Positions 1,641-48,332 of a DNA stretch of 56,822 nt are shown piece by piece. The notes beneath the pieces are model-generated. The model was not told where the DNA came from, did no database searches, and worked only from the letters and a program-made list of their open reading frames with translations. Position numbers and translations under genes: made by a program. This DNA is from a virus (lineage: Duplodnaviria; Caudoviricetes), in the IMG/VR virus record IMGVR_UViG_3300002307_000005, positions 1-56,822 of that record, one strand, 5' to 3'. Position 1 is the first letter of the stretch; each line of letters opens with the position of its first letter.

Positions 1641-2097
1641 AGCCATCGAAGTCCGTGTCTGGGGCTTTGTCGTCGTCGCGGTGACGCTGATCCTGTGCTT
1701 CATCGTCGTGTCGCTGCTGTACAGCGTGACGTTCGTGACGCAGCCAATCAAGTCGATGGCCCCGATTGATCAGGCCTACACCAAGATGCTCAACGACATC
1801 GTGCTGCTGATCGTCGGCGGGATCGGTGGCGTCATGAGCAAGCGTGCCGTGGGTGCAGCGGCCAACGCCATGGCCGGGCCAACACCACAAAATCCCTGTA
1901 CACCTGTGGCGGCTCAGTGGAGTCCGACTCCACCCTCACCAGTTCCCGGCCAGCCGTTTGGTGCCATGCCTGTGTGGAAGAACCCGGATTTGGACGAAAG
2001 CTGGACACCCGGCCCACCCCCGACCACACCACCCGAGCACCAAGAGCCTGACGAAGACCGTCTGGCCCTCGCAATGGCCCGGCAAGAGGTGTCTTGA
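1600..2097 (+). CDS. Two-TM protein with Pro-rich C-terminus (holin candidate)
   Basis: Two hydrophobic helices; upstream of spanins and endolysin. Confidence 0.55.
   Translation: MSSQQHPKHPLNAEAIEVRVWGFVVVAVTLILCFIVVSLLYSVTFVTQPIKSMAPIDQAYTKMLNDIVLLIVGGIGGVMSKRAVGAAANAMAGPTPQNPCTPVAAQWSPTPPSPVPGQPFGAMPVWKNPDLDESWTPGPPPTTPPEHQEPDEDRLALAMARQEVS
1917..1933. repeat. 17-bp palindrome copy 1 (GTGGAGTCCGACTCCAC)
   Basis: Exact copy inside CDS 1600-2097. Confidence 0.9.
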
Positions 2098-16354: not shown

Positions 16355-17158
16355 TCACTTGATGTGAACAAAGGGGGTGACTTGGCCGGGCATGGTGGAT
16401 GGCAGCTTGCCGTCCCACTTTTCGATGGCCTTCAGTTCGACGTACTCACGGCCACCTTGCGAGGTGATCGCAGCAGCACGCAGTCGGATCGCGTCGGCAT
16501 CGCCTTGGGCTTCAACACGCTTGCGGTCAGCTTCAGCCTTGGCGAACTCGACTTCCTTTTGCTTGGCGGCAATCTGGAAGTTGCGGTTGGCGGCTTCTTT
16601 GATGGACGCCTCAAGCGCAGGGTCTGTCACCAAGTTGCGCACGTTGGCAGAGCGAACAAAGAACCAGCCCTTGCCTGCGCTGTCATCCAGATCGGCTTGC
16701 AGTGCCTTAACAACGTCTGCAGCAATCGACACACGCTCAGTGTGGACGGTGTCGCTGCCGTACTTGGCGATGGCGTTGTAGATGGCCTCACGGGCTTGAC
16801 GTGTCACGTAGTTGTTGCCAACACGCACACCGTCTTCGCCCTTCATTTCGGCCATGTCGCCGGGCCAGCGGGTCATGATGTCCGCAGCCTTAGCTGGGTC
16901 GATTTGATAGTAGATGTCCACGTCCAAGTCGGCCAGTGTGATCTTGTCTTTGGTCTGCGGCTTCATGTCGTCCATCTTGAGAAGCAGTTCTTTGGCCGAG
17001 ACCTCAGTCACACGCTTGAAGACGGTCATGTACACGCCGGGCGGCATGGTCTCTTTTTTGACCTGCCCCATGGTGGACTCGACGCCGATGTTTCCGGTGT
17101 CGATTTGGGTGCATGCGGACATGCCTAGCACCGCGAGAATTGCCAGTAATTTTTTCAT
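16355..17158 (-). CDS. SPFH/prohibitin (band 7) domain lipoprotein
   Basis: MKKLLAILAVLGMSAC lipobox; IDTGNIGV; C-terminal AEADRKRVEAQGDADA...IEKWDGKLP. Confidence 0.85.
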   Translation of the reverse strand: MKKLLAILAVLGMSACTQIDTGNIGVESTMGQVKKETMPPGVYMTVFKRVTEVSAKELLLKMDDMKPQTKDKITLADLDVDIYYQIDPAKAADIMTRWPGDMAEMKGEDGVRVGNNYVTRQAREAIYNAIAKYGSDTVHTERVSIAADVVKALQADLDDSAGKGWFFVRSANVRNLVTDPALEASIKEAANRNFQIAAKQKEVEFAKAEADRKRVEAQGDADAIRLRAAAITSQGGREYVELKAIEKWDGKLPSTMPGQVTPFVHIK

Positions 17159-17168
17159 GATTTTCCAG

Positions 17169-17360
17169 TCAGAGAATGTTGATTGATCCGTTGTGCGCAG
17201 CGAAGAACAGGCCAGCCCAAAGGCCGAACCAAATTGCAATCACCACACCAGCGTGCCGCAACAAAAAGTCCTTCACGAAGAACTTTGTGCGGAACGGTGT
17301 GTACTGCCAGCCCAAGTAAACCAAGACCAGCAGCGTCAGCAGCAGGATGAAATGTTTCAC
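17169..17360 (-). CDS. Small two-TM membrane protein
   Basis: GTG start; two hydrophobic stretches. Confidence 0.55.
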   Translation of the reverse strand: MKHFILLLTLLVLVYLGWQYTPFRTKFFVKDFLLRHAGVVIAIWFGLWAGLFFAAHNGSINIL

Positions 17361-17364
17361 AGCT

Positions 17365-17532
17365 TCACCACCAGCCGAACCAGATACCTGTGCCGTGAAT
17401 GTTTGCCACGGGGAACACCAAAGCACCAGCCAAGAGGAACCCCCATGCGGAAGTCTTGATGCAGACAACCACATGGGTGAGCCATGACCCGATGATCCAG
17501 CAAATAAATGCCAATCCGATCAGCGAGTCCAT
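17365..17532 (-). CDS. Small membrane protein (55 aa, MDSLIGLAFICWIIGSWLTHVVVC...)
   Basis: Fills gap, upstream GGAG; below ORF-track cutoff. Confidence 0.6.
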   Translation of the reverse strand: MDSLIGLAFICWIIGSWLTHVVVCIKTSAWGFLLAGALVFPVANIHGTGIWFGWW

Positions 17533-17535
17533 GGA

Positions 17536-17742
17536 TTACTCCATACCGGACAGTTCTTGCTGCTCGGGTGCTTTGAAGTTCTCGACCTCAACGCCTTTTT
17601 GCATCAACTCCACCAGATCGGTCTGGGAAGCCACATGGGCGTGGATCGTGTTGTGCGCCACATGGGCGATTGCTTGGGACTTGGTGTTTGCGTTCACCAG
17701 ACGGATGCCAGTGGGGCCACCAACTACATAAATACGTGCCAT
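17536..17742 (-). CDS. Hypothetical protein (68 aa)
   Basis: Start MARIYVV after GGAG RBS. Confidence 0.65.
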   Translation of the reverse strand: MARIYVVGGPTGIRLVNANTKSQAIAHVAHNTIHAHVASQTDLVELMQKGVEVENFKAPEQQELSGME

Positions 17743-17744
17743 GA

Positions 17745-18533
17745 TCAGACTCCAAATTTGTTTTTCAATTGCCAGAAGGACAGCAGGGCTTGGAACATTT
17801 TCCAGCCGCGCTGAAGGTCTTCTTCGCTCCATTCCTTGACCTTCACGAGGCCGGGATAGGACACAGAAGCGAAGACGTTTGCGCACCGTGCATTGGGCAT
17901 ACCCACGCCGATTCGATAAGCGGCAAGTTGCATCAGGTGCTCGTCATACGCCGGGACTTCATTGTCGGGGCCAAACTCTTTGGTTTTGGCGTCCAACATG
18001 ATGCCCACAGGCGCAGATTCGTCAGGGCGGGTAAAGAGGTCAGTCTTACCGCCGAAGCCCAGAGGGTGAGAAAACGAGACTTCCGTCTCCCAGTTCTGGA
18101 ATGGGTGAGTTTTGAAGTGGTTGAACACGGCCTCCTCAAAGCCCTTGGCGATGTCATCGTGCTCGACAGGGCGCACCCCGCTGTACCACATTTCAATCGA
18201 CTCATGGACTCGTGTGCCACGTTCTGCTGCAGCCTTGGCGGTCGATTTGGAATCCATTACCACTCGGGCAATGAATTCCTTCTCGGTCTCGCCATCGACC
18301 CGTGGAAGGGTCAATGCGGCCAGAAGCAGTTGTTCGTTCTTCCAAACGTCCAAACCGGGCTTTGCAGCCACTTTCATGATCGTGGTGACCGAGGGCACCA
18401 GATTCATTTTTCGTGCGTCCCTGAGGGTCGTAGGACGGTCTGAGCCATCCTTTGCCTTCACGGTGTACTGTGGCTGGCCGTCTGCACCGCGATACCAGTG
18501 CGTACTCTCAGCCGCTCTCACAATAATTGTCAT
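17745..18533 (-). CDS. PD-(D/E)xK exonuclease (recombination nuclease)
   Basis: PSVTTI, RGT.VH, E...GFGGKTD...LDAKTK and QLAAY motifs. Confidence 0.8.
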   Translation of the reverse strand: MTIIVRAAESTHWYRGADGQPQYTVKAKDGSDRPTTLRDARKMNLVPSVTTIMKVAAKPGLDVWKNEQLLLAALTLPRVDGETEKEFIARVVMDSKSTAKAAAERGTRVHESIEMWYSGVRPVEHDDIAKGFEEAVFNHFKTHPFQNWETEVSFSHPLGFGGKTDLFTRPDESAPVGIMLDAKTKEFGPDNEVPAYDEHLMQLAAYRIGVGMPNARCANVFASVSYPGLVKVKEWSEEDLQRGWKMFQALLSFWQLKNKFGV

Positions 18534-18543
18534 ACTTTATACC

Positions 18544-19188
18544 TCAGAAAGGTATATCAGAGTCGTCTTCATCCAGCGCAGGGGCTGCTGGCGCTGCAGG
18601 AGCAGATGCTTTGCCGTTCAGCTTTTCCCACTCGGGCGTAGACATGATCTTCTTCTTCAGGTTTTCGCTGAAGGTGTTGAACATTTCCATGTCGGGATCA
18701 CTGAGCATGAACACTTCGTTCTTGTTCACGGCAGTGGGCAGGCCAGCTTGCTTGATCATGGATGGCACGGGCGTGATGCCGTTGATGTTGACGTACATCT
18801 TGCCGTCTGCGCCTTGCTTCTCGATCACGTTCAGCATGCACCACGCACCCAAGACGGTCTTGAGGTCGAAGCGGCGCATTTCTTCTGCGGAGAAGGGCTT
18901 ACCGCGCCATGACTGAAGGTCAGCACGCAGGTTGGCTTTCTCAGACCACGACATGGTGTAGTTCTTGAACATGGCGAACGGGCGACCGTCCCGCATCTTC
19001 AGTACGTTGCCTGCATCATCTTGGCCGTGGATTTCCCAGCCCATCATGATCTTGCGCAGGTACTTGACTTGGCCAAGGTACTCGGACTTCTGCGTGCCCA
19101 GATCAATGATCCGGTAGCAGCGTGCCAAGTGCAGGCCAGAGGGTGTGGACTCGAAAGAACCACCAGTGTCTTCAACATAAAAGGACAT
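18544..19188 (-). CDS. Putative ssDNA-binding protein
   Basis: Acidic C-terminal tail EDDSDIPF; adjacent to exonuclease. Confidence 0.65.
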   Translation of the reverse strand: MSFYVEDTGGSFESTPSGLHLARCYRIIDLGTQKSEYLGQVKYLRKIMMGWEIHGQDDAGNVLKMRDGRPFAMFKNYTMSWSEKANLRADLQSWRGKPFSAEEMRRFDLKTVLGAWCMLNVIEKQGADGKMYVNINGITPVPSMIKQAGLPTAVNKNEVFMLSDPDMEMFNTFSENLKKKIMSTPEWEKLNGKASAPAAPAAPALDEDDSDIPF

Positions 19189-19280
19189 TAAGGTCTCCAA
19201 AAAATGACATCACAGATGACGATGATTGCGCCGATAGCACACGTCAGCATCAACAACTTGTCTTGCAATTCATCACTCAT
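19188..19280 (-). CDS. 30-aa single-TM peptide
   Basis: MSDELQDKLLMLTCAIGAIIVICDVIFWRP; AGGAG RBS; stop overlaps SSB start. Confidence 0.45.
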   Translation of the reverse strand: MSDELQDKLLMLTCAIGAIIVICDVIFWRP

Positions 19281-19316
19281 GTAATGCTCCTAAACCCGGC
19301 AACATCGCCGTGCCTG

Positions 19317-19337
19317 AACTATAACACAAAATTAAAG
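19317..19337 (-). promoter_or_regulatory. Leftward promoter, variant of repeated promoter motif
   Basis: Reverse strand CTTTAATTTTGTGTTATAGTT, 17/21 identical to the copy at 25159; extended -10 TGtTATAGT. Confidence 0.6.
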
Positions 19338-19347
19338 AGCGCAAGGC

Positions 19348-19375
19348 TTGCTCAAACAAAAAGTTTTGGTACACT
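19348..19375 (+). promoter_or_regulatory. Rightward sigma70-type promoter for Cro-like gene
   Basis: TTGCTC-N16-TACACT with TG extension. Confidence 0.5.
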
Positions 19376-19383
19376 GAGGCCGC

Positions 19384-19584
19384 ATGACATTGACCGAATA
19401 CTTCAGCACCGAACCCAGAGGAGCCAAATCCGAAATGGCAGAACACTTGGGCATCACCCCCACATGGCTTTCACTGGTCATGAAGGGTGATCGTCAGGCG
19501 TCTGCCAACCTGTGCGCTCGTATCGAGAAAGCCACAGGCGGCTTGGTCACACGGGTGGAGTTGCGCCCAGATTTATTCGCGTGA
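19384..19584 (+). CDS. Cro/YdaS-like HTH transcriptional regulator
   Basis: AEHLGITPTWLS HTH; IEKATGGLVTRVELRPDLF family signature. Confidence 0.85.
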   Translation: MTLTEYFSTEPRGAKSEMAEHLGITPTWLSLVMKGDRQASANLCARIEKATGGLVTRVELRPDLFA

Positions 19585-19590
19585 TATAGT
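19561..19590 (+). promoter_or_regulatory. Promoter for C4-like RNA / parB-helicase-primase operon
   Basis: TTGCGC-N18-TATAGT with TG extension. Confidence 0.55.
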
Positions 19591-19621
19591 TTCGACATCG
19601 CTTGGCGGCGATTTTTTGGGT

Positions 19622-19700
19622 AAACCGAGGCCGGAATCCTGACAGTACCCACTGTTCCGCCAACACCGCAAGGTGAGGATTCCGACCTCGGTTTTTTTTT
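19622..19700 (+). ncRNA. C4-like antisense RNA / attenuator
   Basis: Long closing stem; hairpins GACAGT/ACTGTT and CACC-GCAA-GGTG; unpaired CCGCCAA complementary to TTGGCGG at 19602-19608; U-tract. Confidence 0.75.
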
Positions 19701-19710
19701 GGAGAACGAC

Positions 19711-20523
19711 ATGACAAGAATGGTGAGACTGGATCAAATCCGCCTTGATGGTGGCACTCAGTTCCGAGACCAAATTGACCAGCACAAGGTCAAAGAGTAC
19801 GCCGACTGCATGCGTGATGGCGCAGAGTTTCCTGCGGTGCAATGCACCTTTGATGGCGTGAACTACTGGCTGTGGGATGGCTTCCACCGCTACTTTGCAA
19901 GCCAAGCCGTGGGCTTCAAAGAGGTGAACGTGGTGTACAAGCCCGGAACTCAAGAGGATGCACAAGACTTGGCCTTGAGCGCCAACGGCAAACACGGCCT
20001 GCCGCGCAACGTGGCCACCCGCCGCAAGCAAGTCGAGACCGCCCTAAGCATGGAGCGCCATGCAGGCAAGTCCGACCGCGAGATTGCCAAGCTGTGCGAT
20101 GTGTCTCACACCTTTGTGGCCAGCATCCGCAACCCCGAGGCCAAGGAAAAGCAAGCCAAGAACCGCGATGCGTCCGCAGCCAAGAAAGTGGAGTCGGACT
20201 CCACCCTGAAGCCCGGTGACGTTGTGCCCACGCAACAAGTGGAGTCGGACTCCACTGACCCCAAGCCATCCATGACGCAGGACTACGGCCCAGACGCTGA
20301 AGAACTGAAAGCGATGGAGTTAGCAGAGCAGGCTGACCGCGAAATGCTGAACAAGATGTTGGAGTCCGACGATGCCTTGGCCACAGCCCACGCCGAGGTC
20401 AAGCGTCTGAACTTCCTGAACGCTCAGATGGAGGTGCGAATCGCTGCCTTGATGAACGAAAAGAACGCTGCCGTGAAGCAGATCAAAACCCTCGAGAGCC
20501 AACTGAAGAAAGCCAAAAAATGA
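19711..20523 (+). CDS. ParB-like N-terminal (CTPase) domain + HTH + coiled-coil protein
   Basis: DGFHRYFA fits GxxRxxA; AN..HG; HTH SDREIAKLCDVSHTFVASIR; GGAG RBS. Confidence 0.8.
   Translation: MTRMVRLDQIRLDGGTQFRDQIDQHKVKEYADCMRDGAEFPAVQCTFDGVNYWLWDGFHRYFASQAVGFKEVNVVYKPGTQEDAQDLALSANGKHGLPRNVATRRKQVETALSMERHAGKSDREIAKLCDVSHTFVASIRNPEAKEKQAKNRDASAAKKVESDSTLKPGDVVPTQQVESDSTDPKPSMTQDYGPDAEELKAMELAEQADREMLNKMLESDDALATAHAEVKRLNFLNAQMEVRIAALMNEKNAAVKQIKTLESQLKKAKK
20188..20204. repeat. 17-bp palindrome copy 2 (GTGGAGTCGGACTCCAC)
   Basis: Inside parB-like gene, encodes VESDST. Confidence 0.95.
20239..20255. repeat. 17-bp palindrome copy 3
   Basis: 51 bp after copy 2, encodes VESDST again. Confidence 0.95.
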
Positions 20524-22049
20524 CCGAAGTCCTAGCACAGCGAGTGTGTGATGATGGATCAACATTCCCACCACCACGCCCCTTCCAACTTGATGCCCAC
20601 GCACAACTGCGTCAGGGCTTCAAAGCTGGCCACAAGAACCAACTGATCATGGCCCCCACCGGGGCTGGCAAGACCTACCTTGGCCTGCGCATCTGCAACG
20701 AAGCGATGCAAAAGGGCAAGCGTGCTGTGTTCCTGTGTGACCGCACCACGCTGATCAACCAAACCTCTGCTGCGGCTGACGGGTACGGCCTCAGAGACCA
20801 TGGCGTGATCCAAGCCCAACACTGGCGTCGTCAACCCGAGCACCTGCTGCAGATTGCATCGGCCCAGACCATCGCCAAGCGTGAATACTGGCCGCAGTTG
20901 GACGTGCTGGTGGTTGACGAGGCTCACACGCAACTGAAGGTCTGGACTGAGTTTGCGCAGAAGACAGAGGCGGCTGTGATCGGCCTGTCTGCCACTCCGT
21001 TCTCCGTGGGTCTGGGAAAGATTTTCACGAACCTGATCAACGCCACCACCATGCATGACTTGACCGAGTCTGGTGTGCTGGTGCCCATGCGGATTTTCTC
21101 TTGCACCAAGCCCGACATGGCAGGCGCTGCCACTGCTGGTGGTGAGTGGACTGACAAGGCCGCAGAAGAGCGCGGTATGGACATCGTGGGGGACGTAGTC
21201 ACTGAGTGGCTGAAGTTTGCCGAGAACCGCAAGACCATCGTGTTTGGTGCCACCATCAAGCACTGTGAAGAGTTGGCCCAGCAGTTCATCAGCCAAGGCG
21301 TCATGGCCGCTGTATTCACGTCTGAGACCACCGCCAAGGAGCGTGAAGCCCTGTTACAGGACTACCGCCGCCCTGACAGCTTCATCCGTGTGCTGATCAG
21401 CGTGGAGGCCTTGGCCAAGGGTTTTGACGTGCCCGACGTTGGCTGCGTGTGTGATGCACGCCCACTGCGCAAGTCGCTGTCCACCGCCATCCAGATGTGG
21501 GGCCGTGGCCTGCGCTCGTCACCACAGACTGGCAAGACCGACTGCTACTTGCTGGACTTCAGCGGCAACATCATTCGCTTCGCTGAAGACTTCACCGAGG
21601 TGTTCTTCAACGGTCTGGAGTCACTGGACTCGGGCGACAAGCTGGACAAAAAAATCCGCAAGGACGAAGAGGTCGAGTTGAAGGGTTGCCCCAAGTGCGG
21701 CTACAAGCCATTCAGTAAGCGTTGCATGGCGTGCGGGTTTGAGCATGTGAGCCAGAGCACGTCTGCAGCACTGCCCGGTCAGATGCAGGAAATCACGATT
21801 GGTGAGGGCAAGAACAAAAAAGTTCTGGCACCAAACGCCGAGAATTTATGGCACCAGTGCGTGGCCTACGCAAAGCACCACAGCGCCCCTGAAAAGCAAC
21901 AGGGCAGGGCTTACCACCTTTTCAAGAAAATCACTGGCCAAGACCCCATGTGGCGCTTCACAACGGCACCCAGTGTTGAAATCACGCGCAACGTGTACAA
22001 CAAGATCACGCAACTCAACATGGCGTACAAGAAGGGGCTGCAAAAATGA
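20520..22049 (+). CDS. Superfamily 2 DEAD/DEAH-like helicase with C-terminal Zn finger
   Basis: APTGAGKT, DEAH, GLSATP, GFD.P, QMWGRGLR, CPKC..CMAC. Confidence 0.9.
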   Translation: MTEVLAQRVCDDGSTFPPPRPFQLDAHAQLRQGFKAGHKNQLIMAPTGAGKTYLGLRICNEAMQKGKRAVFLCDRTTLINQTSAAADGYGLRDHGVIQAQHWRRQPEHLLQIASAQTIAKREYWPQLDVLVVDEAHTQLKVWTEFAQKTEAAVIGLSATPFSVGLGKIFTNLINATTMHDLTESGVLVPMRIFSCTKPDMAGAATAGGEWTDKAAEERGMDIVGDVVTEWLKFAENRKTIVFGATIKHCEELAQQFISQGVMAAVFTSETTAKEREALLQDYRRPDSFIRVLISVEALAKGFDVPDVGCVCDARPLRKSLSTAIQMWGRGLRSSPQTGKTDCYLLDFSGNIIRFAEDFTEVFFNGLESLDSGDKLDKKIRKDEEVELKGCPKCGYKPFSKRCMACGFEHVSQSTSAALPGQMQEITIGEGKNKKVLAPNAENLWHQCVAYAKHHSAPEKQQGRAYHLFKKITGQDPMWRFTTAPSVEITRNVYNKITQLNMAYKKGLQK

Positions 22050-22945
22050 CCACCTTCATTGACTTTGCACGCGCACACGGGGTGGACATCGACCCCGGCA
22101 AGCTGTACGCCTCCGACAAGATTCGCCGCACTGGCACCGTCGACAAACCACGCTCGGGCAACGGCGCGTACTACTGGGATGGCCAGCGCGGCTGGGTGTT
22201 CGATTGGTCTGGCGAGGCACGCACGATCTGGTACGAAGACCCCAACGCCAAGCCATGGACGCTGCAGGAGAAGCAGGACTGGATGCTCAAGCGCCAGACT
22301 GCTGCCGCGCAGAAGGATCGCTCCTACGACATCGCGGCACAGAAGGCCGACATCACCTTGCGTTCTGCCAAGATGGCCGCGCACGACTACCTGCACCTCA
22401 AGGGCTTTCCTGACGAAAAAGGCTTGGTGCTGGACGGTGAGTTGCTGGTGCCCATGCGCAACGTCGTGACCAACAAGCTGCAGGGCTACCAGAAGATTTT
22501 CTGGGACATGGACGAGCGCAAGTGGGAGAAGAAGATGCTCCCCGGCATGCGTGCCAAGAACGCCGTGCTGTTCATGGGCGACAGAAGGGCCGAGGAGGCG
22601 TGGTTGGTCGAAGGGTATGCCACAGGCCTATCCGTTCACGCCGCGCTGCGCAGCGTGGGTTCTGGTGCGTCTGTGGTGGTGTGCTTCAGTGCATCGAACA
22701 TGATTCAGGTGGCAGACCAGATTCCCGGCAAGCGGTTCATCTTTGCCGACAACGATCCATCCAAGAAGCATCCAGACACTGGCGCAGAAGTCGGAATGAC
22801 TGGCGAAAGGTCAGCCATCCAGACTGGCCTGCCTTGGACGATGGCCGATACTGTAGGATGGGACGCCAATGACCTTCATAAAGCCGCTGGACTGTTTTCG
22901 GTGGTGAAGTGCATCATGGGAGCAAAGCATGCATTACAACAATAA
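22046..22945 (+). CDS. TOPRIM-domain DNA primase
   Basis: EGYATGLS, FADND and DAND motifs. Confidence 0.85.
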   Translation: MTTFIDFARAHGVDIDPGKLYASDKIRRTGTVDKPRSGNGAYYWDGQRGWVFDWSGEARTIWYEDPNAKPWTLQEKQDWMLKRQTAAAQKDRSYDIAAQKADITLRSAKMAAHDYLHLKGFPDEKGLVLDGELLVPMRNVVTNKLQGYQKIFWDMDERKWEKKMLPGMRAKNAVLFMGDRRAEEAWLVEGYATGLSVHAALRSVGSGASVVVCFSASNMIQVADQIPGKRFIFADNDPSKKHPDTGAEVGMTGERSAIQTGLPWTMADTVGWDANDLHKAAGLFSVVKCIMGAKHALQQ

Positions 22946-23165
22946 ATACGAGCGGAACCAACTGATCTATGATCATCACGTTCATTTGGGTCGGACGATG
23001 AGAAGCCTTGCGGAAGAGTTTGGTGTGGGCCAACAACGAATTTCGCAAATCGTCGCCAAGGAGAGACGGAAAATTGTTCGCACACCTCCAAACTATGTCC
23101 TGAAAGAACTTTTGCCTTTGAAAAGTTTTTTGGTGGAATTGGCGGAAATGCCAGTAGAATCCTGA
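22929..23165 (+). CDS. Small HTH protein
   Basis: ERN..IY...RTMRSLAEEFGVGQQRISQIV HTH pattern. Confidence 0.6.
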   Translation: MHYNNKYERNQLIYDHHVHLGRTMRSLAEEFGVGQQRISQIVAKERRKIVRTPPNYVLKELLPLKSFLVELAEMPVES

Positions 23166-23370
23166 CCCTTCTGGAAGGTCGTGCTGGTGGACTGAAAACA
23201 CCAGCGCCAACACGCATGGGGTCTGTGCCGAGTTGCACAAAACGCTTGAGTCTCCTAGGAACGACGAATAGCGGAACAGACCCCAGTCGTGTTGGTGGTT
23301 AAGCGAAGGGACGCCAGCCGATTGGGGCTGGAGGGTCACGCAGGATCGGGGGTTCTCGGTCGCCACCAAC

Positions 23371-23427
23371 AACCAACACGGCTGACGAGGCGTGATGCGC
23401 CGAAACACGAAAGTGTCCCGTGGAGTT
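23371..23427 (+). ncRNA. Type I hammerhead ribozyme
   Basis: Stem I CACGG/CCGTG; core CTGACGA; stem II GGCGT-GAT-GCGCC; GAAA; stem III CAC-GAAA-GTG; GUC cleavage triplet ending at 23417. Confidence 0.88.
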
Positions 23428-23604
23428 TCCCATGCGGGGGAATAACTGGAAACCTTAGCGGTTCAAACCTAAGAACCTTCGCAAGAGGGCGTTTAGGCCG
23501 TGGGTGTGCAACGAACCGTGACTGCACACATCTTGCCCCGCAACTTTTCCGTGTATACTCCGCCCATCATGAAATCCCAAGTGATCACCCCCCGACCGAC
23601 TGAG

Positions 23605-23680
23605 CAGTGTGTAGCTCAGATGGTAGAGCGCGTGCTTTGGGAGCATGAGGTCGCAGGTTCGATCCCTGTCACACTGACCA
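23605..23680 (+). tRNA. tRNA-Pro(UGG)
   Basis: Cloverleaf, acceptor CAGTGTG/CACACTG, anticodon TGG, CCA end. Confidence 0.92.
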
Positions 23681-23733
23681 ATTCAAATTGCCGATCCAAT
23701 AATTCAACGACGAATTATTGATCCCCGTTTCGC

Positions 23734-23820
23734 GGGGATGCGGCGCAGAAGGTGTGGCGCAGCAGACTGTAAATCTGCCGCTCAAAAGGCAAGTTGGTTC
23801 AAATCCAGCCATCCCCACCA
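23734..23820 (+). tRNA. tRNA-Tyr(GUA)
   Basis: GGGGATG/CATCCCC, GCAGA-CTGTAAA-TCTGC, long variable region, CCA. Confidence 0.88.
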
Positions 23821-23844
23821 AACCTTCAATCCCCCAAAGTTTTT

Positions 23845-23922
23845 TGTGTACGAGCACGCATGGTGTGTGCGCTCCGCTGTTAACGGAGAATGAGCTTGGT
23901 TCGATCCCAAGGTACACAGCCA
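23845..23922 (+). tRNA. tRNA-Asn(GUU)
   Basis: TGTGTAC/GTACACA, CTCCG-CTGTTAA-CGGAG, G73, CCA. Confidence 0.85.
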
Positions 23923-23927
23923 GTTGT

Positions 23928-24001
23928 ATCTCGCTCGTCCAATGGCAGGACTCTGGATTCCAAATCCAGCTATGGTGGTTCGAGTCCATCGCGGGATGCC
24001 A
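23928..24001 (+). tRNA. tRNA-Trp(CCA)
   Basis: ATCTCGC/GCGGGAT, CTGGA-TTCCAAA-TCCAG, CCA. Confidence 0.88.
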
Positions 24002-24002
24002 A

Positions 24003-24079
24003 GCCCTCGTAGCTCAGTTGGTAGAGCACCTGTTTTGTACTCAGGAGGCCGGGCGTTCGATTCGACCCCGAGGGCACCA
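24003..24079 (+). tRNA. tRNA-Thr(UGU)
   Basis: GCCCTCG/CGAGGGC, anticodon loop TTTGTAC, CCA; bulge in T-stem. Confidence 0.8.
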
Positions 24080-24088
24080 AAAAAAATG

Positions 24089-24119
24089 TTGACACACCAA
24101 GACCAGTTGCGCTTATAAT
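24089..24119 (+). promoter_or_regulatory. Sigma70-type promoter
   Basis: TTGACA-N19-TATAAT with upstream A-tract; spacer longer than optimal. Confidence 0.55.
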
Positions 24120-24153
24120 TCGCCCAGCTAGGCGTGGAAGCCGATGCGAAGCG

Positions 24154-24250
24154 AAAGCCGTTAAGTCAAACTCCGACCCCTTTGGGGTGGCGGGTCAGCC
24201 TAAAAAACTGATGCGTTCTTCCACCGGGGTTTGTCTTAACGGTTTTTTTT
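24154..24250 (+). ncRNA. Second C4-like antisense RNA / attenuator
   Basis: ~22-bp closing stem AAAGCCGTTAAGTCAAACTCCG/CGGGGTTTGTCTTAACGGTTTT; two internal hairpins; CTTCCAC complementary to GTGGAAG at 24134-24140; U-tract. Confidence 0.6.
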
Positions 24251-24651
24251 CGTCTGTACTTTCACATCCAGCTATGCCTCAGACGTTTTGGTGACTACGA
24301 ACGTTTTGATCTGAGGCGAGAGCCGTAAAAACTGTCGATGCGGCAAGCGCGGGTGGGGAAGCGCTGATTGTTGAGTAAACCGCCAGAACGGAACCGGGTC
24401 TAGAGATTAGGGTGCTCCGGGGCAACGGCAACAATCAGGTCGAGCTTGGTCAGTGCGCTAAGAAGGGGTCTCACAATGGGCCTAAATGTCTGACAGCCAC
24501 GGCGGAACATTGAGAGATGACCGTGGCCAATGATTGCGACGAATACGACCGACGTGATATTGATCTTCAGCCAACCCCGACTCTTCGGGCTAGGGGTGGG
24601 CTGTGTCCAGAATGCTCCTTCCACTCCCTCCGTGATAAACAGGAACTCAGA

Positions 24652-25119
24652 ATGTCAGAAGTAAAAAACTTGTCTCAAAGTCAGGACTGGCAAAGTGCAA
24701 CCCCAAAGCAAAGGTTGGATTTCGTTGTCAAGGCAAGGTCTGACACAAAAGATCGTCGTCAATCCGAGAAGGCGGAAAAAGAACGGCTGAAGGTTTTGGC
24801 CAAGCAGCAAAAGCCTAAAAAGAAGCGTGCCGTCAGGAGAGCCAGAACCACCAATTTACCCAGCACGCCAAGCGTCACATCCAAAGCATTTCTGGAGTCG
24901 TTTGAGTGGCGTCGATTGCGCATGCAGGCGCTCAAGAAGTACAGCCCACGGTGCATGTGCTGCGGTGCAACGCCACAGGATGGCGCAGTCATGAATGTGG
25001 ATCACATCAAGCCACGCAAATTGTTTCCCGATCTGGCGCTGGACATCAACAACTTACAGATTTTGTGCCATGAGTGCAACCACGGCAAAGGCAACTGGGA
25101 TCAAACCGATTGGCGTTAA
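24652..25119 (+). CDS. HNH endonuclease
   Basis: CMCCG...VDHIKP...NLQILCHECNHGKGN. Confidence 0.85.
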   Translation: MSEVKNLSQSQDWQSATPKQRLDFVVKARSDTKDRRQSEKAEKERLKVLAKQQKPKKKRAVRRARTTNLPSTPSVTSKAFLESFEWRRLRMQALKKYSPRCMCCGATPQDGAVMNVDHIKPRKLFPDLALDINNLQILCHECNHGKGNWDQTDWR

Positions 25120-25158
25120 CGATGGGCACGCCGCGACCCCAAAAAAATTTCCCCCAAA

Positions 25159-25179
25159 CTTTAATTTCATGTTAGAATT
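25159..25179 (+). promoter_or_regulatory. Repeated promoter motif copy
   Basis: CTTTAATTTCATGTTAGAATT; extended -10 TGtTAGAAT. Confidence 0.7.
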
Positions 25180-25218
25180 ACATCACCACGACGTTGTGGG
25201 TATTACCGGAGAGTCAGC

Positions 25219-28560: not shown

Positions 28561-28829
28561 ACAACAAACTCACAGCGAAAGAGCGCCTGCACGTTGGGCG
28601 CGTCAAGGAACTGCCCTGCAGCGTCTGCGATGCCCCCGGCCCCAGTGATGCCCACCACGTCAAGCAGCACCGCCAGTACACCTGCGTGGCGCTGTGCAAG
28701 TCCTGCCACCAAGGCGCACTCATGGGTTGGCATGGCCAGAGGCGCATGTGGGCACTGAAGAAGATGGACGAAATCGACGCTCTGAACGTCACCATTCAGA
28801 GGCTGGTGGAGTCCGACTCCACAAGGTAG
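28557..28829 (+). CDS. Ref/DUF968-like Zn-binding HNH-type protein
   Basis: LPCSVC..AHH...LCKSCH. Confidence 0.65.
   Translation: MNNKLTAKERLHVGRVKELPCSVCDAPGPSDAHHVKQHRQYTCVALCKSCHQGALMGWHGQRRMWALKKMDEIDALNVTIQRLVESDSTR
28806..28822. repeat. 17-bp palindrome copy 4
   Basis: GTGGAGTCCGACTCCAC in last codons of gene, ~50 bp before promoter motif. Confidence 0.95.
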
Positions 28830-28873
28830 GGAAACCACTTAGCAACTTTTTTTTCAAAGGGGTGGTTTTGTTG

Positions 28874-28901: not shown

Positions 28902-28935
28902 GGTCAACGAGACCGGGATTACCAAGGATTACGAC

Positions 28936-29229: not shown

Positions 29230-29241
29230 TTGGAGAACATC

Positions 29242-29523: not shown

Positions 29524-29533
29524 GGAGAACGCC

Positions 29534-33125: not shown

Positions 33126-33340
33126 CAGACATTTACTGGCCCGGAACCAAGATCATCAAAAGCCAAGGCAACGCCTTCGACTGGCGACACTACGGCAGCA
33201 CCATCATGCAGGACAAAAAGTTCATCCAGTCGGAGATTGCCAAGAAGAACTCCGCAGGAACTGGAGCCGATCCCAAGAAGCAATTCACCATCTACAGCAA
33301 GGCTCGGCCATCCGCAAAGCGTGGAGTCGGACTCCAGTAA
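33122..33340 (+). CDS. Hypothetical protein
   Basis: ATGA coupling; last gene before promoter motif. Confidence 0.55.
   Translation: MTDIYWPGTKIIKSQGNAFDWRHYGSTIMQDKKFIQSEIAKKNSAGTGADPKKQFTIYSKARPSAKRGVGLQ
33321..33337. repeat. 17-bp palindrome copy 5 (16/17: GTGGAGTCGGACTCCAG)
   Basis: In last codons of gene, ~35 bp before promoter motif. Confidence 0.9.
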
Positions 33341-35731: not shown

Positions 35732-36057
35732 TCCACTTCACCAAAATGGCTGGTTTCGTTCAAGTCGGCCTGAACTTTTATCGCGCCCCCGGTGGGTTTG
35801 TGGCCATCTGGGCTTGGTGCGACGCCAAGAACTACCGCATGACCCATCGCCGCATTCGTCTGCGCCTGCATATGTGGCCATTCATCCTGACCAGCCGTGA
35901 AAGTTACTTCGTGGTCGAGCGCTGGCTGGATCGCAACTTTTACGTGGCAGTGCCGCGCACTGTGGCCGAGGACGAGGGCAAACACTTTGAGGTGCTGGCC
36001 GCAGCCTTCAAGCGTGAGGGATTCCCCTCCAGCTTGAACGGGAAGACCCTGTCATGA
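35728..36057 (+). CDS. Hypothetical protein between terS and terL
   Basis: ATGA overlaps at both ends. Confidence 0.55.
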   Translation: MIHFTKMAGFVQVGLNFYRAPGGFVAIWAWCDAKNYRMTHRRIRLRLHMWPFILTSRESYFVVERWLDRNFYVAVPRTVAEDEGKHFEVLAAAFKREGFPSSLNGKTLS

Positions 36058-37490
36058 GCGTTGCCCTCGACATCCTTCAGGATGAAGAGACCCAGAAGGA
36101 ATACAGCGCCCTGTCGGTCTATCAGCAGGCTGCATTCAACTGGCAGTTCAAGTGGCTGCAGGAGCAAGCCCTCAAGCACCAGATCGAACCACCGGGCGAG
36201 TGGTGGAGCATCTGGCTCATGCTGGCTGGCCGTGGAGCCGGGAAGACCCGTGCAGCCGCTGAGACGCTGGCATCATGGGCATGGGAGACGCCCAACACTC
36301 GGTGGCTGGTGTCCGCCCCCACGTCCGGTGACTTGAAGAGCACATGCTTTGAGGGTGAATCCGGCCTGCTGAAGGTGATCCCGCCCATTCTGGTGGCCAA
36401 GTACAACTCCAGCCTGCACGAAATCACGCTGGTCAATGGCTCCCTGATCAAGGGCATCCCGGCATCCGAGCCTGAGCGCTTCCGGGGGCCGCAGTTCCAT
36501 GGTGGATGGCTGGACGAGTTGGCCGCATGGGAATACCTGCGCGAGGCGTGGGACATGATCATGTTCGGCATCCGTCTGGGCAACCGCACCAAGCTGATCG
36601 CGTCGACCACGCCCAAGCCAAAAGAGGTGGTGATGGAGTTGATCGACCGCGAAGGCGACGACGTGGTGATCACCCGCGCCAGCACGTACAGCAACATCAA
36701 GAACCTTGCGCCATCCTTCCAGAAGCAAATCCTGCAGTACGAGGGCACCAACCTTGGACGGCAGGAGATTCACGCTGAAATCATCGACCCAGAAGAGGGC
36801 GGCATTGTCCGGCGTGACTGGTTCCGCCTGTGGCCAGCCAACAAGCCGTTCCCCAAGTTCGAGTACATCATCCAGTCCTACGACTGCGGGTACAAGGATG
36901 GCGCTGCCAACGACCCGACAGGCTGCATCACGCTGGGCGCATTCAAGCCACTGGACGGCGGCATGTGCGTGATGGTCATCGACTGCTGGCAGGAGAAGCT
37001 GCAGTACCCCGACCTACGCCCCAAGATCATCGACGAGTACGAGACGGTGTACGGTGAGGGCAAGGAGAAGAAGCGGGTCGACCTGCTGCTGGTGGAGGAC
37101 AAGGCCGCTGGCATCAGCCTGATCCAAGACTTGCAGCGTGCCCACCTGCCAGTGATCGGCTACAACCCGGGCAGGGCCGACAAGACCCAGCGCCTGAGCA
37201 TCGTGGCCAACGTCATCCGTGCCGGGCGCGTCTGGGTGCCTGAGAGCAGCCAGCGCAAGGGCTTTGTCCGTGATTGGGCCGAGGGCATGGTCAGCCAAAT
37301 ATGCTCCTTCCCCGAGACCGTGCATGACGAGTTCGTTGACTGCATCAGCCAAGGCCTGCGCTACATGCGTGACGCTGGGTGGATCAGCATTGACGCCCCG
37401 CCACGGGAAGACTACGACGACGACGACATCTATGATGCCGACGAGTACAACCAACGGGCACGGTCGATGGCCAACCCGTACTCTGCATAA
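36054..37490 (+). CDS. terL: Terminase large subunit
   Basis: AGRGAGKT, FRGPQF..WLDE, STTPKP, GRQEI, C-terminal HDEFVD nuclease motif. Confidence 0.95.
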   Translation: MSVALDILQDEETQKEYSALSVYQQAAFNWQFKWLQEQALKHQIEPPGEWWSIWLMLAGRGAGKTRAAAETLASWAWETPNTRWLVSAPTSGDLKSTCFEGESGLLKVIPPILVAKYNSSLHEITLVNGSLIKGIPASEPERFRGPQFHGGWLDELAAWEYLREAWDMIMFGIRLGNRTKLIASTTPKPKEVVMELIDREGDDVVITRASTYSNIKNLAPSFQKQILQYEGTNLGRQEIHAEIIDPEEGGIVRRDWFRLWPANKPFPKFEYIIQSYDCGYKDGAANDPTGCITLGAFKPLDGGMCVMVIDCWQEKLQYPDLRPKIIDEYETVYGEGKEKKRVDLLLVEDKAAGISLIQDLQRAHLPVIGYNPGRADKTQRLSIVANVIRAGRVWVPESSQRKGFVRDWAEGMVSQICSFPETVHDEFVDCISQGLRYMRDAGWISIDAPPREDYDDDDIYDADEYNQRARSMANPYSA

Positions 37491-37519: not shown

Positions 37520-37536
37520 GTGGAGTCCGACTCCAC
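37520..37536. repeat. 17-bp palindrome copy 6
   Basis: Intergenic after terL; flanks TGAAA/TTTCA extend the symmetry with one bulge. Confidence 0.95.
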
Positions 37537-37553: not shown

Positions 37554-37570
37554 GTGGAGTCCGACTCCAC
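37554..37570. repeat. 17-bp palindrome copy 7
   Basis: Starts 34 bp after copy 6. Confidence 0.95.
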
Positions 37571-48300: not shown

Positions 48301-48332
48301 AGGGAGTGGAGTCGGACTCCACTCCCTTTTTT
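48301..48332 (+). terminator. Terminator after capsid gene built around palindrome copy 8 (48306-48322)
   Basis: AGGGAGTGGAGTC-G-GACTCCACTCCCT followed by T-run. Confidence 0.8.

What the first reader, a model, noticed from the sequence alone, without database searches (positions are those of the whole stretch)
19711..20523. Orphan ParB-like protein with eight parS-like 17-bp palindromes, two inside its own gene
Seen: GTGGAGTC(C/G)GACTCCAC occurs at 1917, 20188, 20239, 28806, 33321 (16/17), 37520, 37554 and 48306, four in each orientation. Two copies lie just after the HTH-coding part of a gene with a ParB GxxRxxA motif and make it read VESDST twice. The palindrome has no stop in any frame, so it can sit inside CDSs. 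No ParA, integrase or CI is visible. Known: ParB-family CTPase clamps (ParB, KorB, VirB) load at palindromic sites, and KorB/VirB act as long-range transcription regulators. Inference: this is a phage-encoded clamp-plus-site system for genome-wide regulation, replication or packaging, with the site carried inside the gene so specificity and site are inherited together.
Basis: partly seen in the sequence, partly recalled or inferred. Interest (0 to 1): 0.92.

Follow-up and report, generated by a model that had tools for sequence, protein, structure and literature searches.

The report
Phage ParB-like protein with co-evolving palindromes
A freshwater phage carries a ParB-type DNA-binding protein whose 17-base palindromic target lies inside its own gene and at fixed places in the genome, and relatives have changed protein and target together, so the pair is real, although its job (probably choosing where DNA replication starts) is still inferred.

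Summary
GTGGAGTCSGACTCCAC occurs 8 times (7 exact, 1 with one mismatch) in a complete 56.8-kb phage genome, against 0.01 expected. Two copies lie in the disordered linker-coding part of a ParB-fold/HTH/coiled-coil gene.

Relatives show a co-evolving protein-site pair:
- A perfect 16/17-bp palindrome lies in the same 280-nt gene window in 50 of 81 loci, against 0 of 77-81 in five control windows.
- Its sequence is lineage-specific, changes on both arms together, and tracks the first two residues of the recognition helix.
- Each site type is found only in genomes with the matching protein.
- It is not a host repeat.

The gene is the first of a conserved ParB-like/SF2-helicase/primase triad. Its C-terminal domain travels with the helicase when the N-terminal part is swapped. 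Prophage relatives keep only the in-gene site. Lytic relatives add sites, always one just after terL.

Best reading (about 0.4): an origin-selecting protein, analogous to lambda O with ori inside O. Main rival (about 0.3): a KorB/BisD-like clamp that regulates transcription. NTP binding, clamping and function are untested. I rate it a new variant of a known kind, interest 0.7.

The parts
19711..20523 (+). ParB-like gene (270 aa; alternative TTG start at 19699). Domains: ParB/Srx N-terminal domain 1-100, HTH about 101-160 (recognition helix 133-140, HTFVASIR), disordered linker 165-188, coiled-coil C-terminal domain 196-269.
20188..20204 (.). In-gene palindrome 1 (reads VESDST, residues 160-165).
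20239..20255 (.). In-gene palindrome 2 (reads VESDST, residues 177-182), 51 nt from the first.
20360..20370 (.). Partial copy TGGAGTCCGAC (11 of 17 positions). It encodes the conserved LESDD motif of the C-terminal domain; its significance is unknown.
28806..28822 (.). Palindrome in the last codons of ORF 28209-28829 (phrog_1588). The same position holds a site in relatives G001, G006, G012 and MW202545.
33321..33337 (.). 16/17 copy ending at the stop codon of ORF 33122-33340.
37520..37536 (.). First of a pair in the gap after terL (33 nt after the last terL sense codon).
37554..37570 (.). Second of the pair after terL, 17 nt before the ATG of ORF 37588-37797.
48306..48322 (.). Copy after the major capsid gene. 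It forms the top of a longer hairpin, GGGA-site-TCCC, followed by TTTTTT (terminator-like).
1917..1933 (.). Copy inside ORF 1600-2097 (phrog_25359), in a Pro-rich stretch.
20520..22049 (+). SF2 helicase (ResIII + Helicase_C, phrog_16). Its start overlaps the ParB-like stop (ATGA).
22046..22945 (+). Toprim-type primase (phrog_2249).
19384..19584 (+). Cro/YdaS-like HTH gene, the first gene of the rightward operon.
19622..19703 (+). 22-nt inverted repeat followed by T9, a terminator-like hairpin between the cro-like gene and the ParB-like gene.
18544..19200 (-). SSB-like OB-fold protein with an acidic C-terminal tip ending DIPF. NCBIfam labels it 'replication initiation protein, NGO0469 family'.
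17745..18533 (-). PD-(D/E)XK-type exonuclease (phrog_298).
36054..37490 (+). Terminase large subunit, the landmark for the conserved downstream site.

Best explanation
Two levels, with different confidence.

(1) Strongly inferred, about 0.9: the gene encodes a dimeric ParB-fold/HTH protein. Its recognition helix (H133, T134 ...) reads the 17-bp palindrome GTGGAGTC-S-GACTCCAC, one half-site per subunit. Protein and site form a cognate pair that has diversified into many specificities among related phages.

(2) Inferred, about 0.4: the pair is the origin-selection part of a three-gene replication module (ParB-like, SF2 helicase, primase).
- The protein nucleates on the palindrome(s) inside its own linker-coding DNA, the one site that every relative keeps.
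- Through its conserved coiled-coil C-terminal domain it brings in the helicase encoded immediately downstream. With the primase and the phage SSB-like protein, the helicase opens and primes the DNA.
- This is functionally analogous to lambda O, whose origin lies inside the O gene between a specificity domain and a partner-binding domain, and to the herpesvirus UL9 SF2 origin helicase. Both analogies are recalled, not tested here.
- The ParB N-terminal domain would give nucleotide-gated self-association or clamping at the site.
- The extra sites of the lytic group (always one just after terL) would be secondary loading sites. Their purpose (further origins, titration, or coupling to late functions) is open.
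For: Binding pair:
- 8 sites against 0.01 expected.
- A perfect 8+0/1+8 palindrome lies in gene nt 400-680 in 50 of 81 loci, against 0 of 77-81 in five equal control windows. Repeated segments peak at gene nt 480-540.
- Changes are symmetric on both arms.
- Among 47 loci with perfect 17-mers, helix residue 2 = P goes with A at arm position 6 in 21 of 21, and S/T goes with G in 22 of 23.
- On a tree built without the HTH and linker columns there are 6 independent pairs on supported branches. The base goes the same way in 5-6 and the opposite way in 0.
- Helix residue 1: H with GTGGA/GTGGT in 9 of 9, Q with TACTA/TACTG in 11 of 11 rows.
- The cross-matrix of 13 genomes' site patterns (11 distinct) against 13 genomes gives exact matches only in the genome of origin or one with the same pattern; 1 of the 13 (G011) has no exact match at all.
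- The palindrome occurs once in a 5.6-Mb Variovorax genome, inside the gene.

Fold:
- Foldseek hits ParB 7bnk (9e-8), Noc, Caulobacter ParB and KorB over about 140 columns.
- The linker that encodes the sites is disordered.

Replication role:
- A helicase ORF of about 509 aa starts within -30 to +260 nt of the ParB-like stop in 75 of 81 loci.
- The triad is kept in 7 of 12 bacterial-genome loci tested, which are prophage-like, and in temperate phage AP1.
- The AP1 homolog is 22% (N-terminal domain) and 17% (HTH) identical to the window's protein but 55% in the C-terminal domain. The C-terminal domain therefore travels with the helicase and primase while the specificity part is exchanged.
- The only protein labelled 'replication initiation' in the genome is really SSB-like. 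No other initiator was seen among the 33 ORFs scanned.
- Prophage relatives keep only the in-gene site.
- The layout cro-like gene, terminator-like hairpin, then this gene matches the lambda order cro-tR1-O (the lambda layout is recalled).
- Three small integrase-linked islands carry the ParB-like gene with its site but no helicase or primase. That fits a hijackable initiator plus origin.
Against: - Many relatives have a single palindrome in the gene, whereas classical origins have several iterons.
- There is no clear AT-rich unwinding element. GC dips only 6-9 points below the locus mean at -80..0 and +220..+280.
- The lytic group keeps extra sites at fixed, mostly intergenic or 3'-end positions: after terL in 11 of 11, the last codons of the orf28209 homolog, and after the portal gene. 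An origin model does not predict this; a regulator model does.
- Conservation of the ParB nucleotide-pocket residues (Q17, R19, G57, R60, N92 invariant in 50 sequences) is not needed by a simple origin binder.
- The phylogenetic test of covariation is small (sign test median p 0.06). The H/Q split is a single event on the tree.
- AP1 (32% identical) has no repeated palindrome.
- No binding, nucleotide or replication experiment exists. A test of contact between the C-terminal domain and the helicase could not be run.
Confidence: 0.4

Rival explanations
1. KorB/VirB/BisD-like regulator. The protein loads at the palindromes as a nucleotide-gated sliding clamp and controls transcription of phage operons at a distance: repression, anti-silencing, or activation of late genes. 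The in-gene site would serve autoregulation and co-inheritance.
For: - ParB N-terminal domain, HTH, long flexible linker and C-terminal dimerisation domain together make the clamp architecture. KorB structures 8qa8 and 8qa9 are among the fold hits.
- The window has 8 dispersed sites in 57 kb, 5 of them intergenic or in the last codons of a gene.
- Positions are conserved across relatives although the sequence differs: after terL in 11 of 11, and in the 22-nt terS-terL gap of another lineage.
- In G001 and G004 a TNGACT-17-CATAAT promoter-like motif lies about 25-45 nt after the post-terL site (read).
- KorB and BisD long-range control is documented (abstracts and passages of PMC11790492 and PMC12409273, seen in the listings).
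Against: - Prophage relatives have only the in-gene site: 1 in 5.6 Mb, and none other within 78.5 kb even with an 11-nt core.
- There is no site in the divergent early promoter region 19201-19383.
- In several relatives the post-terL site is 17-30 nt from the next start codon, which leaves no room for a promoter.
- The sigma-70 consensus scan found no more promoter-like sites than shuffled sequence (4 against 7.6).
- The box II and box III glutamates used for CTP hydrolysis in Myxococcus ParB are absent (alignment; their role is recalled).
Confidence: 0.3
2. Packaging or self-recognition mark. The protein marks the phage's own DNA at sites next to the terminase genes and elsewhere, either to help start packaging or to tell its own DNA from that of co-infecting relatives. 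The many specificities would be the result of competition between related phages.
For: - A site directly flanks terL in 11 of 11 genomes, or sits between terS and terL in another lineage.
- The major capsid protein is 93-98% identical among 12 relatives while the ParB-like protein is 42-81% identical. This fast diversification of protein plus site resembles immunity or incompatibility determinants.
- The cross-matrix is strictly cognate.
Against: - The genome has its own small terminase subunit (phrog_1482), the usual pac-recognition protein.
- The gene belongs to the early replication operon and travels with the helicase and primase, not with the terminase.
- Prophage relatives lack any terminase-linked site.
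Confidence: 0.1
3. Site-specific nickase. The ParB-like 'nuclease' domain nicks at or near the palindromes to prime rolling-circle or nick-initiated replication, or to make T5-like strand interruptions.
For: - Invariant D13, D56, H59, R60, N92 and near-invariant H95 and K-rich motifs could form a catalytic site.
- Some ParB/Srx-fold proteins are annotated as nucleases (a Pfam family name seen; their activity is recalled).
- An origin inside the initiator gene is also typical of nicking initiators (recalled).
Against: - A symmetric dimer on a palindrome would cut both strands.
- The closest fold hits are NTP-binding ParB, Noc, KorB and sulfiredoxin, not nucleases.
- No metal-binding acidic cluster was examined.
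Confidence: 0.07
4. Plasmid-type partition (a ParB centromere system) for a plasmid prophage.
For: ParB fold and palindromic sites. Phage-plasmid N15 has four SopB sites, IR1-4 (passages of PMC7205306).
Against: - No ParA.
- TIGR00180 scores 15.8 bits against a 58.45 cut-off.
- Relatives are integrated prophages with integrases or lytic-looking phages without one.
Confidence: 0.03
5. The palindromes act as RNA or DNA hairpins (terminators, processing sites) unrelated to the protein, and the association is only linkage.
For: - Symmetric changes also preserve a hairpin.
- The copy at 48306 is the top of a terminator-like stem followed by T6.
Against: - The sites covary with helix residues over independent branches.
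- Copies lie inside coding regions in different frames.
- Most copies lack a T-run.
- Copies far from the gene change together with the gene.
Confidence: 0.03

Closest known systems
KorB of IncP plasmid RK2 (ParB-family CTPase clamp and global repressor)
   Same: - ParB N-terminal domain plus HTH fold (Foldseek 8qa8 3.5e-5, 8qa9 6.8e-5).
- A short palindromic operator dispersed over a mobile genome of about 55-60 kb (8 here; 12 for RK2 is recalled).
- Some sites far from promoters or inside genes.
   Different: - No ParA/IncC partner, and no KorA-like partner identified.
- Coiled-coil C-terminal domain.
- Box II reads GFHRYFA, without the glutamate and the first arginine.
- Always linked to a helicase and a primase.
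- Prophage relatives have a single in-gene site.
- The host element is a phage.
Chromosomal ParB/Spo0J with parS, and Noc with NBS
   Same: - Best fold matches (7bnk, 7bm8, 6sdk, 7ng0).
- 16-17-bp palindrome read by the HTH.
- One B. subtilis parS lies inside spo0J itself (recalled; searches did not retrieve the statement).
- Specificity can be switched by a few helix residues (recalled).
   Different: - TIGR00180 is far below its cut-off.
- No ParA.
- Different C-terminal domain.
- Dozens of natural specificities within one phage family.
Lambda O protein with ori-lambda inside the O gene (also SPP1 G38P/oriL, P22 gene 18); all recalled
   Same: - The cis site is embedded in the flexible interdomain part of the gene for its own binding protein.
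- The N-terminal specificity part covaries with the site.
- The C-terminal part is linked to the next replication gene.
- The gene follows a cro-like gene and a terminator.
- SPP1 also has a second initiator site far away in the genome.
   Different: - No sequence or fold relation.
- 1-2 perfect palindromes rather than four iterons plus an AT-rich block.
- The partner is an SF2 helicase rather than a DnaB loader.
- Extra sites at fixed places in the lytic group.
N15 SopB with four IR centromere sites
   Same: A phage-borne ParB-family protein with several separate inverted-repeat sites (IR1-4; passages of PMC7205306).
   Different: N15 has SopA and is a plasmid prophage. Here there is no ParA and no sign of a plasmid state.
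BisD of ICEclc and VirB of Shigella (ParB-like CTP clamps that activate genes)
   Same: Orphan ParB-like proteins on mobile elements that act from specific sites (abstracts).
   Different: No evidence here for transcriptional activation; the link here is to replication genes.
Phage 5mYOX-associated ParB-like regulators (bioRxiv 10.1101/2025.08.14.668559)
   Same: Phage-encoded ParB-fold proteins without ParA.
   Different: Those lack the DNA-binding domain (passages read). This one has an HTH and a cognate site.

Membership tests
ParB/Srx superfamily (ParB N-terminal domain, PF02195) | Sequence match to the family model | tested here: inconclusive
   The single sequence scores 17 bits against a cut-off of 26.3. 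Many close homologs carry a precomputed PF02195. The family profile hits sulfiredoxin at 1.5e-6 and Myxococcus ParB at 1.2e-5. PHROG 1033 'ParB-like partition protein' gives E 2.7e-19.
ParB/Srx superfamily (ParB N-terminal domain, PF02195) | ParB N-terminal fold followed by an HTH DNA-binding domain | tested here: met
   AF2 model pLDDT 85. Foldseek hits to ParB, Noc and KorB at E 9e-8 to 7e-5 over about 140 columns.
Canonical partition ParB (TIGR00180) | Score above the curated cut-off | tested here: not met
   15.8 bits against 58.45.
Canonical partition ParB (TIGR00180) | ParA partner encoded on the same element | tested here: not met
   No PF13614 match in the complete genome, while the control genomes all match. 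PF01656 was not searched.
ParB-type CTPase clamp | Box I (Q-x-R), box II (GERRxRA) and box III (ENxxR) nucleotide motifs | tested here: inconclusive
   Q17-x-R19 and N92 are invariant. Box II is G57-F-H-R60-Y-F-A63, so the glutamate and first arginine are replaced, and the box III glutamate is replaced by A/S. The box names and residue roles are recalled.
ParB-type CTPase clamp | CTP (or other NTP) binding and site-triggered clamp closure | not testable with these tools
KorB-like global regulator | Several dispersed palindromic operators on the element | tested here: inconclusive
   Met in the window (8), MW202545 (8) and G009 (11 at one mismatch or fewer). Not met in prophage relatives, which have the in-gene site only.
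KorB-like global regulator | Operators placed relative to promoters; a co-repressor | tested here: inconclusive
   The consensus promoter scan shows no enrichment. A promoter-like motif near the post-terL site is seen only in G001 and G004. No KorA-like partner was sought.
Initiator with the origin inside its own gene (lambda O type; an analogy, not homology) | Binding sites inside the interdomain part of the initiator gene | tested here: met
Initiator with the origin inside its own gene (lambda O type; an analogy, not homology) | The next genes encode the replication partners | tested here: met
   Helicase follows in 75 of 81 loci. The triad is kept in 7 of 12 bacterial loci.
Initiator with the origin inside its own gene (lambda O type; an analogy, not homology) | Iteron array plus an adjacent AT-rich unwinding element | tested here: not met
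   One or two palindromes per gene. GC dips only 6-9 points below the locus mean.
Initiator with the origin inside its own gene (lambda O type; an analogy, not homology) | Origin activity of the site | not testable with these tools
   Only contig-kept runs were listed, so there are no read depths for marker-frequency analysis.

The most novel reading that the evidence does not exclude
A ParB-fold, nucleotide-gated DNA clamp has been recruited as the origin-selecting initiator of a phage replication module (ParB-like, SF2 helicase, primase), with the origin written into its own linker.

The two-residue recognition code (helix residue 1 for the outer bases; residue 2 S/T against P for G against A at arm position 6) has radiated into dozens of mutually exclusive specificities. 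These would act as replication-incompatibility or 'immunity' types among otherwise near-identical freshwater phages.

Minimal integrase islands that carry only the ParB-like gene and its site would be satellites that steal the helper's helicase and primase.
Probability: 0.3. Interest if true: 0.85.

Novelty: new variant of a known kind. Interest (0 to 1): 0.7.

Why it matters
ParB-like genes without ParA are among the commonest unexplained genes of phages. This family has at least 1,508 proteins at E <= 1e-3 and 525 confirmed loci in IMG/VR. For this family the target site can now be read from the genome for each member. That gives a natural series of matched protein-site pairs with a simple helix-to-base code. 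This is ready material for specificity engineering and orthogonal DNA-labelling tools, and for testing how ParB-type proteins change targets.

If the replication reading holds, it would be the first ParB-fold origin-recognition protein. It would also explain why this gene evolves far faster than the capsid gene (42-81% against 93-98% identity). Cultured systems exist for testing: Acidovorax phage AP1, and the Variovorax sp. RT4R15 and Zeimonas arvi prophages.

Tried and rejected
- Host repeat or REP-like element: rejected. The related 17-mer occurs once in a 5.6-Mb Variovorax genome. In a 3.8-Mb Zeimonas genome it occurs twice inside the gene, plus one 1-mismatch copy on another contig.
- The 18544-19200 protein as a rival initiator (NCBIfam NF046043): rejected.
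  - The label goes back to weak BLAST hits (passages of PMC1931599).
  - All 63 homologs found end in an acidic tail plus (I/V)PF.
  - The model's best fold hit is the SSB-like PrgE (1.8e-4), followed by weak SSB, RPA and PriB hits. phmmer against PDB found nothing.
- Sigma-70 promoter and terminator scan of 19000-38500: no enrichment (4 against 7.6 promoters; 25 against 24.1 terminators).
- TTAGGG motif after the sites at 28806 and 33321: only 6 copies in the window and no clear pattern. Left as a passing note.
- Half-sites: GTGGAGTC occurs outside full sites only twice, against about 0.9 expected, so there is no half-site array.
- ESM Atlas search with the C-terminal domain: best score 0.79, below the tool's lead level, and no named family.
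- Covariation of helix residue 6 with arm position 8: S/G goes with C in 21 of 24, but A goes with T in only 10 of 20. Too weak to claim.
- Literature:
  - Searches found no paper on this family or on Acidovorax phage AP1.
  - Two searches and the passages did not retrieve the statement that a B. subtilis parS lies in spo0J, so that point is given as recalled.
  - Supplements were not opened.
- Sequencing runs: 13 listed, all kept as contigs, and no RNA holder listed. Read laying was therefore not used, and no depth-based origin mapping was possible.
- Of the 43 IMG/VR stretches with the window's exact 17-mer, 23 showed no similarity to the window by blastn or landmark tblastn. Only 5 records were checked for a ParB-like gene: 3 have one and 2 short fragments do not. 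The rest were not followed, and some may be chance matches.
- The search of protein representatives, Rfam and PADLOC were not used.
Full report
**What the window is.**
- It is a complete virus record of 56,822 bases. IMG/VR classes its ends as direct terminal repeats and CheckV rates it 100% complete. The repeat is 77 nt, most likely assembly overlap.
- Nearly identical DNA is held by four freshwater metagenome runs, one of which may be the source.
- Gene order is as follows.
  - A leftward operon with an SPFH protein, an exonuclease and an SSB-like protein (16355-19200, minus strand).
  - A rightward early operon: cro/YdaS-like HTH, a terminator-like hairpin with T9, the ParB-like gene, SF2 helicase, primase, five tRNAs, an HNH protein, MazG and small ORFs.
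  - Then terS, terL, a large protein, portal, capsid and tail genes, running across the record ends.
- Six-frame searches find no tyrosine integrase and no ParA-type ATPase.

- The 17-mer occurs 8 times (7 exact, one 16/17), against 0.01 expected, with the centre base C in four and G in four.
- Two copies lie 51 nt apart in the gene 19711-20523 and read VESDST twice.
- The AF2 model (pLDDT 85) shows four parts:
  - a ParB-type N-terminal domain;
  - an HTH, with helices 122-129 and 133-140;
  - a low-confidence segment 165-188;
  - two long C-terminal helices.
- The palindromes are therefore written into the start and the middle of the flexible linker.
- Foldseek matches Myxococcus ParB, Noc, Caulobacter ParB and KorB over about 140 columns (E 9e-8 to 7e-5). 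A family profile finds sulfiredoxin and ParB in PDB.
- Pfam ParB_N and TIGR00180 are below their cut-offs for the single sequence.
- The other six copies lie as follows:
  - in the last codons of two small ORFs (28806, 33321);
  - as a pair in the gap after terL (37520, 37554);
  - as the top of a terminator-like hairpin after the capsid gene (48306);
  - inside a Pro-rich part of ORF 1600-2097.

**Relatives turn the observation into a system.**
- The nearest GenBank phage is MW202545.1, whose ParB-like protein is 48% identical. It has eight copies of a different 17-bp palindrome, TACTAGTC-W-GACTAGTA. Two lie at the same place in its ParB-like gene and two just after terL.
- An 81%-identical IMG/VR relative uses GTGGAATC-S-GATTCCAC, one symmetric step away from the window's site, with five copies in its record.
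- In 81 loci (80 from IMG/VR plus the window):
  - Repeated DNA segments peak at gene nt 480-540: 27 and 24 loci in the two peak bins, 0-13 elsewhere.
  - A perfect 8+0/1+8 palindrome lies in gene nt 400-680 in 50 loci. It lies in 0 of 77-81 loci in each of five equal control windows of the same gene and the helicase gene.
- More than a dozen site types were seen, all differing by changes on both arms.
- In 13 (near-)complete genomes, 12 of the 13 site patterns (11 distinct) match exactly only in their own genome or one with the same pattern; G011's 15-nt pattern has no exact match at all, since its own copies differ from it at one base.
- The capsid protein of these genomes is 93-98% identical to the window's, while the ParB-like protein is 42-81% identical. 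Protein and site are therefore a fast-diversifying pair.

**The protein reads the site.**
- The helix starts C-x-V-S-x1-x2-F-V. In the 50-sequence alignment:
  - x1 = H goes with arms starting GTGGA/GTGGT (9 of 9);
  - Q goes with TACTA/TACTG (11 of 11);
  - K goes with (G/C)AGTA or GGTA;
  - R goes with CGTAGTC;
  - A goes with GTGTA;
  - D/E goes with several ..GGTT/..AGTT types.
  - Two rows with E (L062, L070) carry Q-type sites and are exceptions.
- Among 83 loci with the motif, 47 have a perfect 17-mer. In those, x2 = P goes with A at arm position 6 in 21 of 21, and x2 = S/T goes with G in 22 of 23.
- A FastTree tree was built without the HTH and linker columns. On it:
  - x2 changes at least 11 times;
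  - six independent pairs lie on supported branches (11 on all branches);
  - the base changes the same way in 5-6 and never the other way;
  - the sign test gives median p 0.06, range 0.03-0.125.
- The H/Q split is a single event on that tree and gives no independent support.
- Because the S/T-against-P rule holds within the H, Q, K and A/R classes, linkage alone is an unlikely explanation.
- Additional bacterial-genome loci fit the same code:
  - Variovorax VSHP with GTGGAATC;
  - a Comamonadaceae MAG VSRS with TGTAGTC;
  - LSQP with TACTAATC.

**It is not a host repeat.**
- In the 5.6-Mb Variovorax genome the palindrome occurs once, inside the gene. In the 3.8-Mb Zeimonas genome it occurs twice inside the gene, plus one 1-mismatch copy on another contig.
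- Within 78.5 kb around the Variovorax gene, even an 11-nt core finds no second copy.
- The window's exact 17-mer is present in 43 IMG/VR stretches.
  - 20 are relatives, with the site after the capsid gene, after terL, or in the 22-nt gap between terS and terL.
  - 23 showed no similarity to the window. Of five such records tested, three have a ParB-like gene and two short fragments do not.

**Context points to replication.**
- An ORF of about 509 aa (the SF2 helicase, 58-90% identical across 44 sequences) starts within -30 to +260 nt of the ParB-like stop in 75 of 81 loci. In the window the stop and start overlap as ATGA.
- The ParB-like/helicase/primase triad recurs in 7 of 12 bacterial-genome loci tested: Variovorax, Zeimonas, Lampropedia, Glaciimonas, Simplicispira, Kumtagia and a Burkholderiaceae MAG. 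It also recurs in the temperate Acidovorax phage AP1, which has an integrase.
- The AP1 protein is 22% and 17% identical to the window's in the N-terminal domain and HTH, but 55% in the C-terminal domain. Across the family the linker is 11% identical on average, and the N- and C-terminal domains about 51-52%.
- The protein is thus modular. A specificity part (with the site at its 3' edge) is exchangeable, and a partner part stays with the helicase and primase.
- The only protein labelled as a replication initiator (18544-19200, NCBIfam NF046043) is SSB-like instead.
  - The label derives from weak BLAST hits.
  - All 63 homologs end in an acidic tail plus IPF/VPF.
  - The fold's best match is the SSB-like PrgE.
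- Three bacterial loci carry the ParB-like gene with its palindrome next to a tyrosine integrase, without helicase or primase. One is followed by AbiEi/AbiEii, and one is an island of about 6 kb ending at a tRNA-Ser.

**Evidence against a pure origin model.**
- Many relatives have one palindrome only.
- GC dips near the site are modest.
- The lytic group keeps extra sites at fixed places although the sequence differs.
  - A cognate palindrome lies 0-67 nt after the terL stop in 11 of 11 genomes that have a terL match. One search, at one mismatch or fewer, had found 9 of these.
  - Copies lie in the last codons of the orf28209 homolog in five genomes, 94-205 nt after the portal gene in three, and near nt 500 of a tail-fibre-like ORF of about 800-880 aa in four.
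- These placements, together with invariant nucleotide-pocket residues (Q17, R19, G57, R60, N92), fit a KorB/BisD-type clamp that acts on transcription or on late functions.
- The two readings are not exclusive. KorB itself serves both partition and regulation (abstracts).

**Verdict.**
- The cognate protein-site pair is as well supported as sequence analysis allows (about 0.9).
- The function is inferred:
  - origin selection for the helicase-primase module, about 0.4;
  - clamp-type regulator, about 0.3;
  - packaging or self-marking, about 0.1;
  - nickase, about 0.07;
  - partition, about 0.03;
  - hairpin only, about 0.03.
- No paper describing this family was found. A 2025 survey of ParB-fold proteins notes many orphan phage forms without assigning this one (passages). 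The 5mYOX-linked phage ParBs lack a DNA-binding domain (passages).
- I rate it a new variant of a known kind (a ParB-type protein with a palindromic site on a mobile element). What sets it apart is the in-gene site, the readable specificity code, the rapid diversification and the fixed link to a helicase and a primase.
Supplements of papers were not seen.

Noticed in passing
L123:5897-7962, L126:8769-12475, L128:7215-13162: In three Burkholderiales genomes a full-length ParB-like gene with its own linker palindrome sits next to a tyrosine integrase, with no helicase or primase. One is followed by AbiEi/AbiEii. One forms an island of about 6 kb ending at a tRNA-Ser. These may be minimal satellites of the phages described here.
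   Followed up: partly
G002 (record of L010), 6 places, e.g. L010:10476-10491 and 10500-10515: This relative uses a 16-mer with an asymmetric centre, GTGGAA-ACAA-TTCCAC. All 6 copies (3 exact, 3 with 1-2 mismatches) in the 20-kb fragment point the same way, 6 forward and 0 reverse.
   Followed up: no
window 28823-28850 and 33338-33365; also G001, G004, G006, G012: The sites at the ends of the two small ORFs are followed within 5-16 nt by (T)TAGGG and, in some, a matching CCCTA (TAGGGTTTGTCCCTA). This could be a second regulatory motif or a hairpin. There are only 6 TTAGGG in the window.
   Followed up: partly
window 18544-19200 (-): NCBIfam names this family 'phage replication initiation protein, NGO0469 family'. 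The fold and the conserved acidic ...DIPF tail indicate an SSB-like OB-fold protein, so the family name is probably misleading.
   Followed up: yes
window 20360-20370: An 11-nt partial copy of the palindrome encodes the conserved LESDD motif of the C-terminal domain, so the peptide VESDST of the sites echoes LESDD. This may be chance, or a trace of how the site arose.
   Followed up: no
L016, L017, L025, L027 (helicase ORFs of 781-815 aa): In four relatives the helicase ORF is about 270-300 aa longer than the usual 509 aa, which suggests an intein or an inserted domain.
   Followed up: no
window 23605-24079: A cluster of five tRNA genes (Pro, Tyr, Asn, Trp, Thr) lies directly after the primase gene.
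   Followed up: no
L161, L162, L166, L174, L180, L195 (one Planctomycetes chromosome) and several Nostoc loci: The N-terminal domain plus HTH (residues 1-140, 37-47% identical), without the coiled-coil domain, occurs in many copies in some bacterial chromosomes: 6 in one Planctomycetes genome. The context was not examined.
   Followed up: no
window 48302-48332: The capsid-gene terminator-like hairpin is built around a copy of the palindrome (GGGA-site-TCCC plus T6). Several relatives with the same site type share this, but MW202545 and G001 have no site there.
   Followed up: partly
IMG/VR record of L203/L215/L224/L234 (G016, 24.7 kb): This record has four copies of the window's exact 17-mer but no detectable similarity to the window and no ParB-like gene in the 34%-complete fragment. 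It may be another phage type using the same site.
   Followed up: partly
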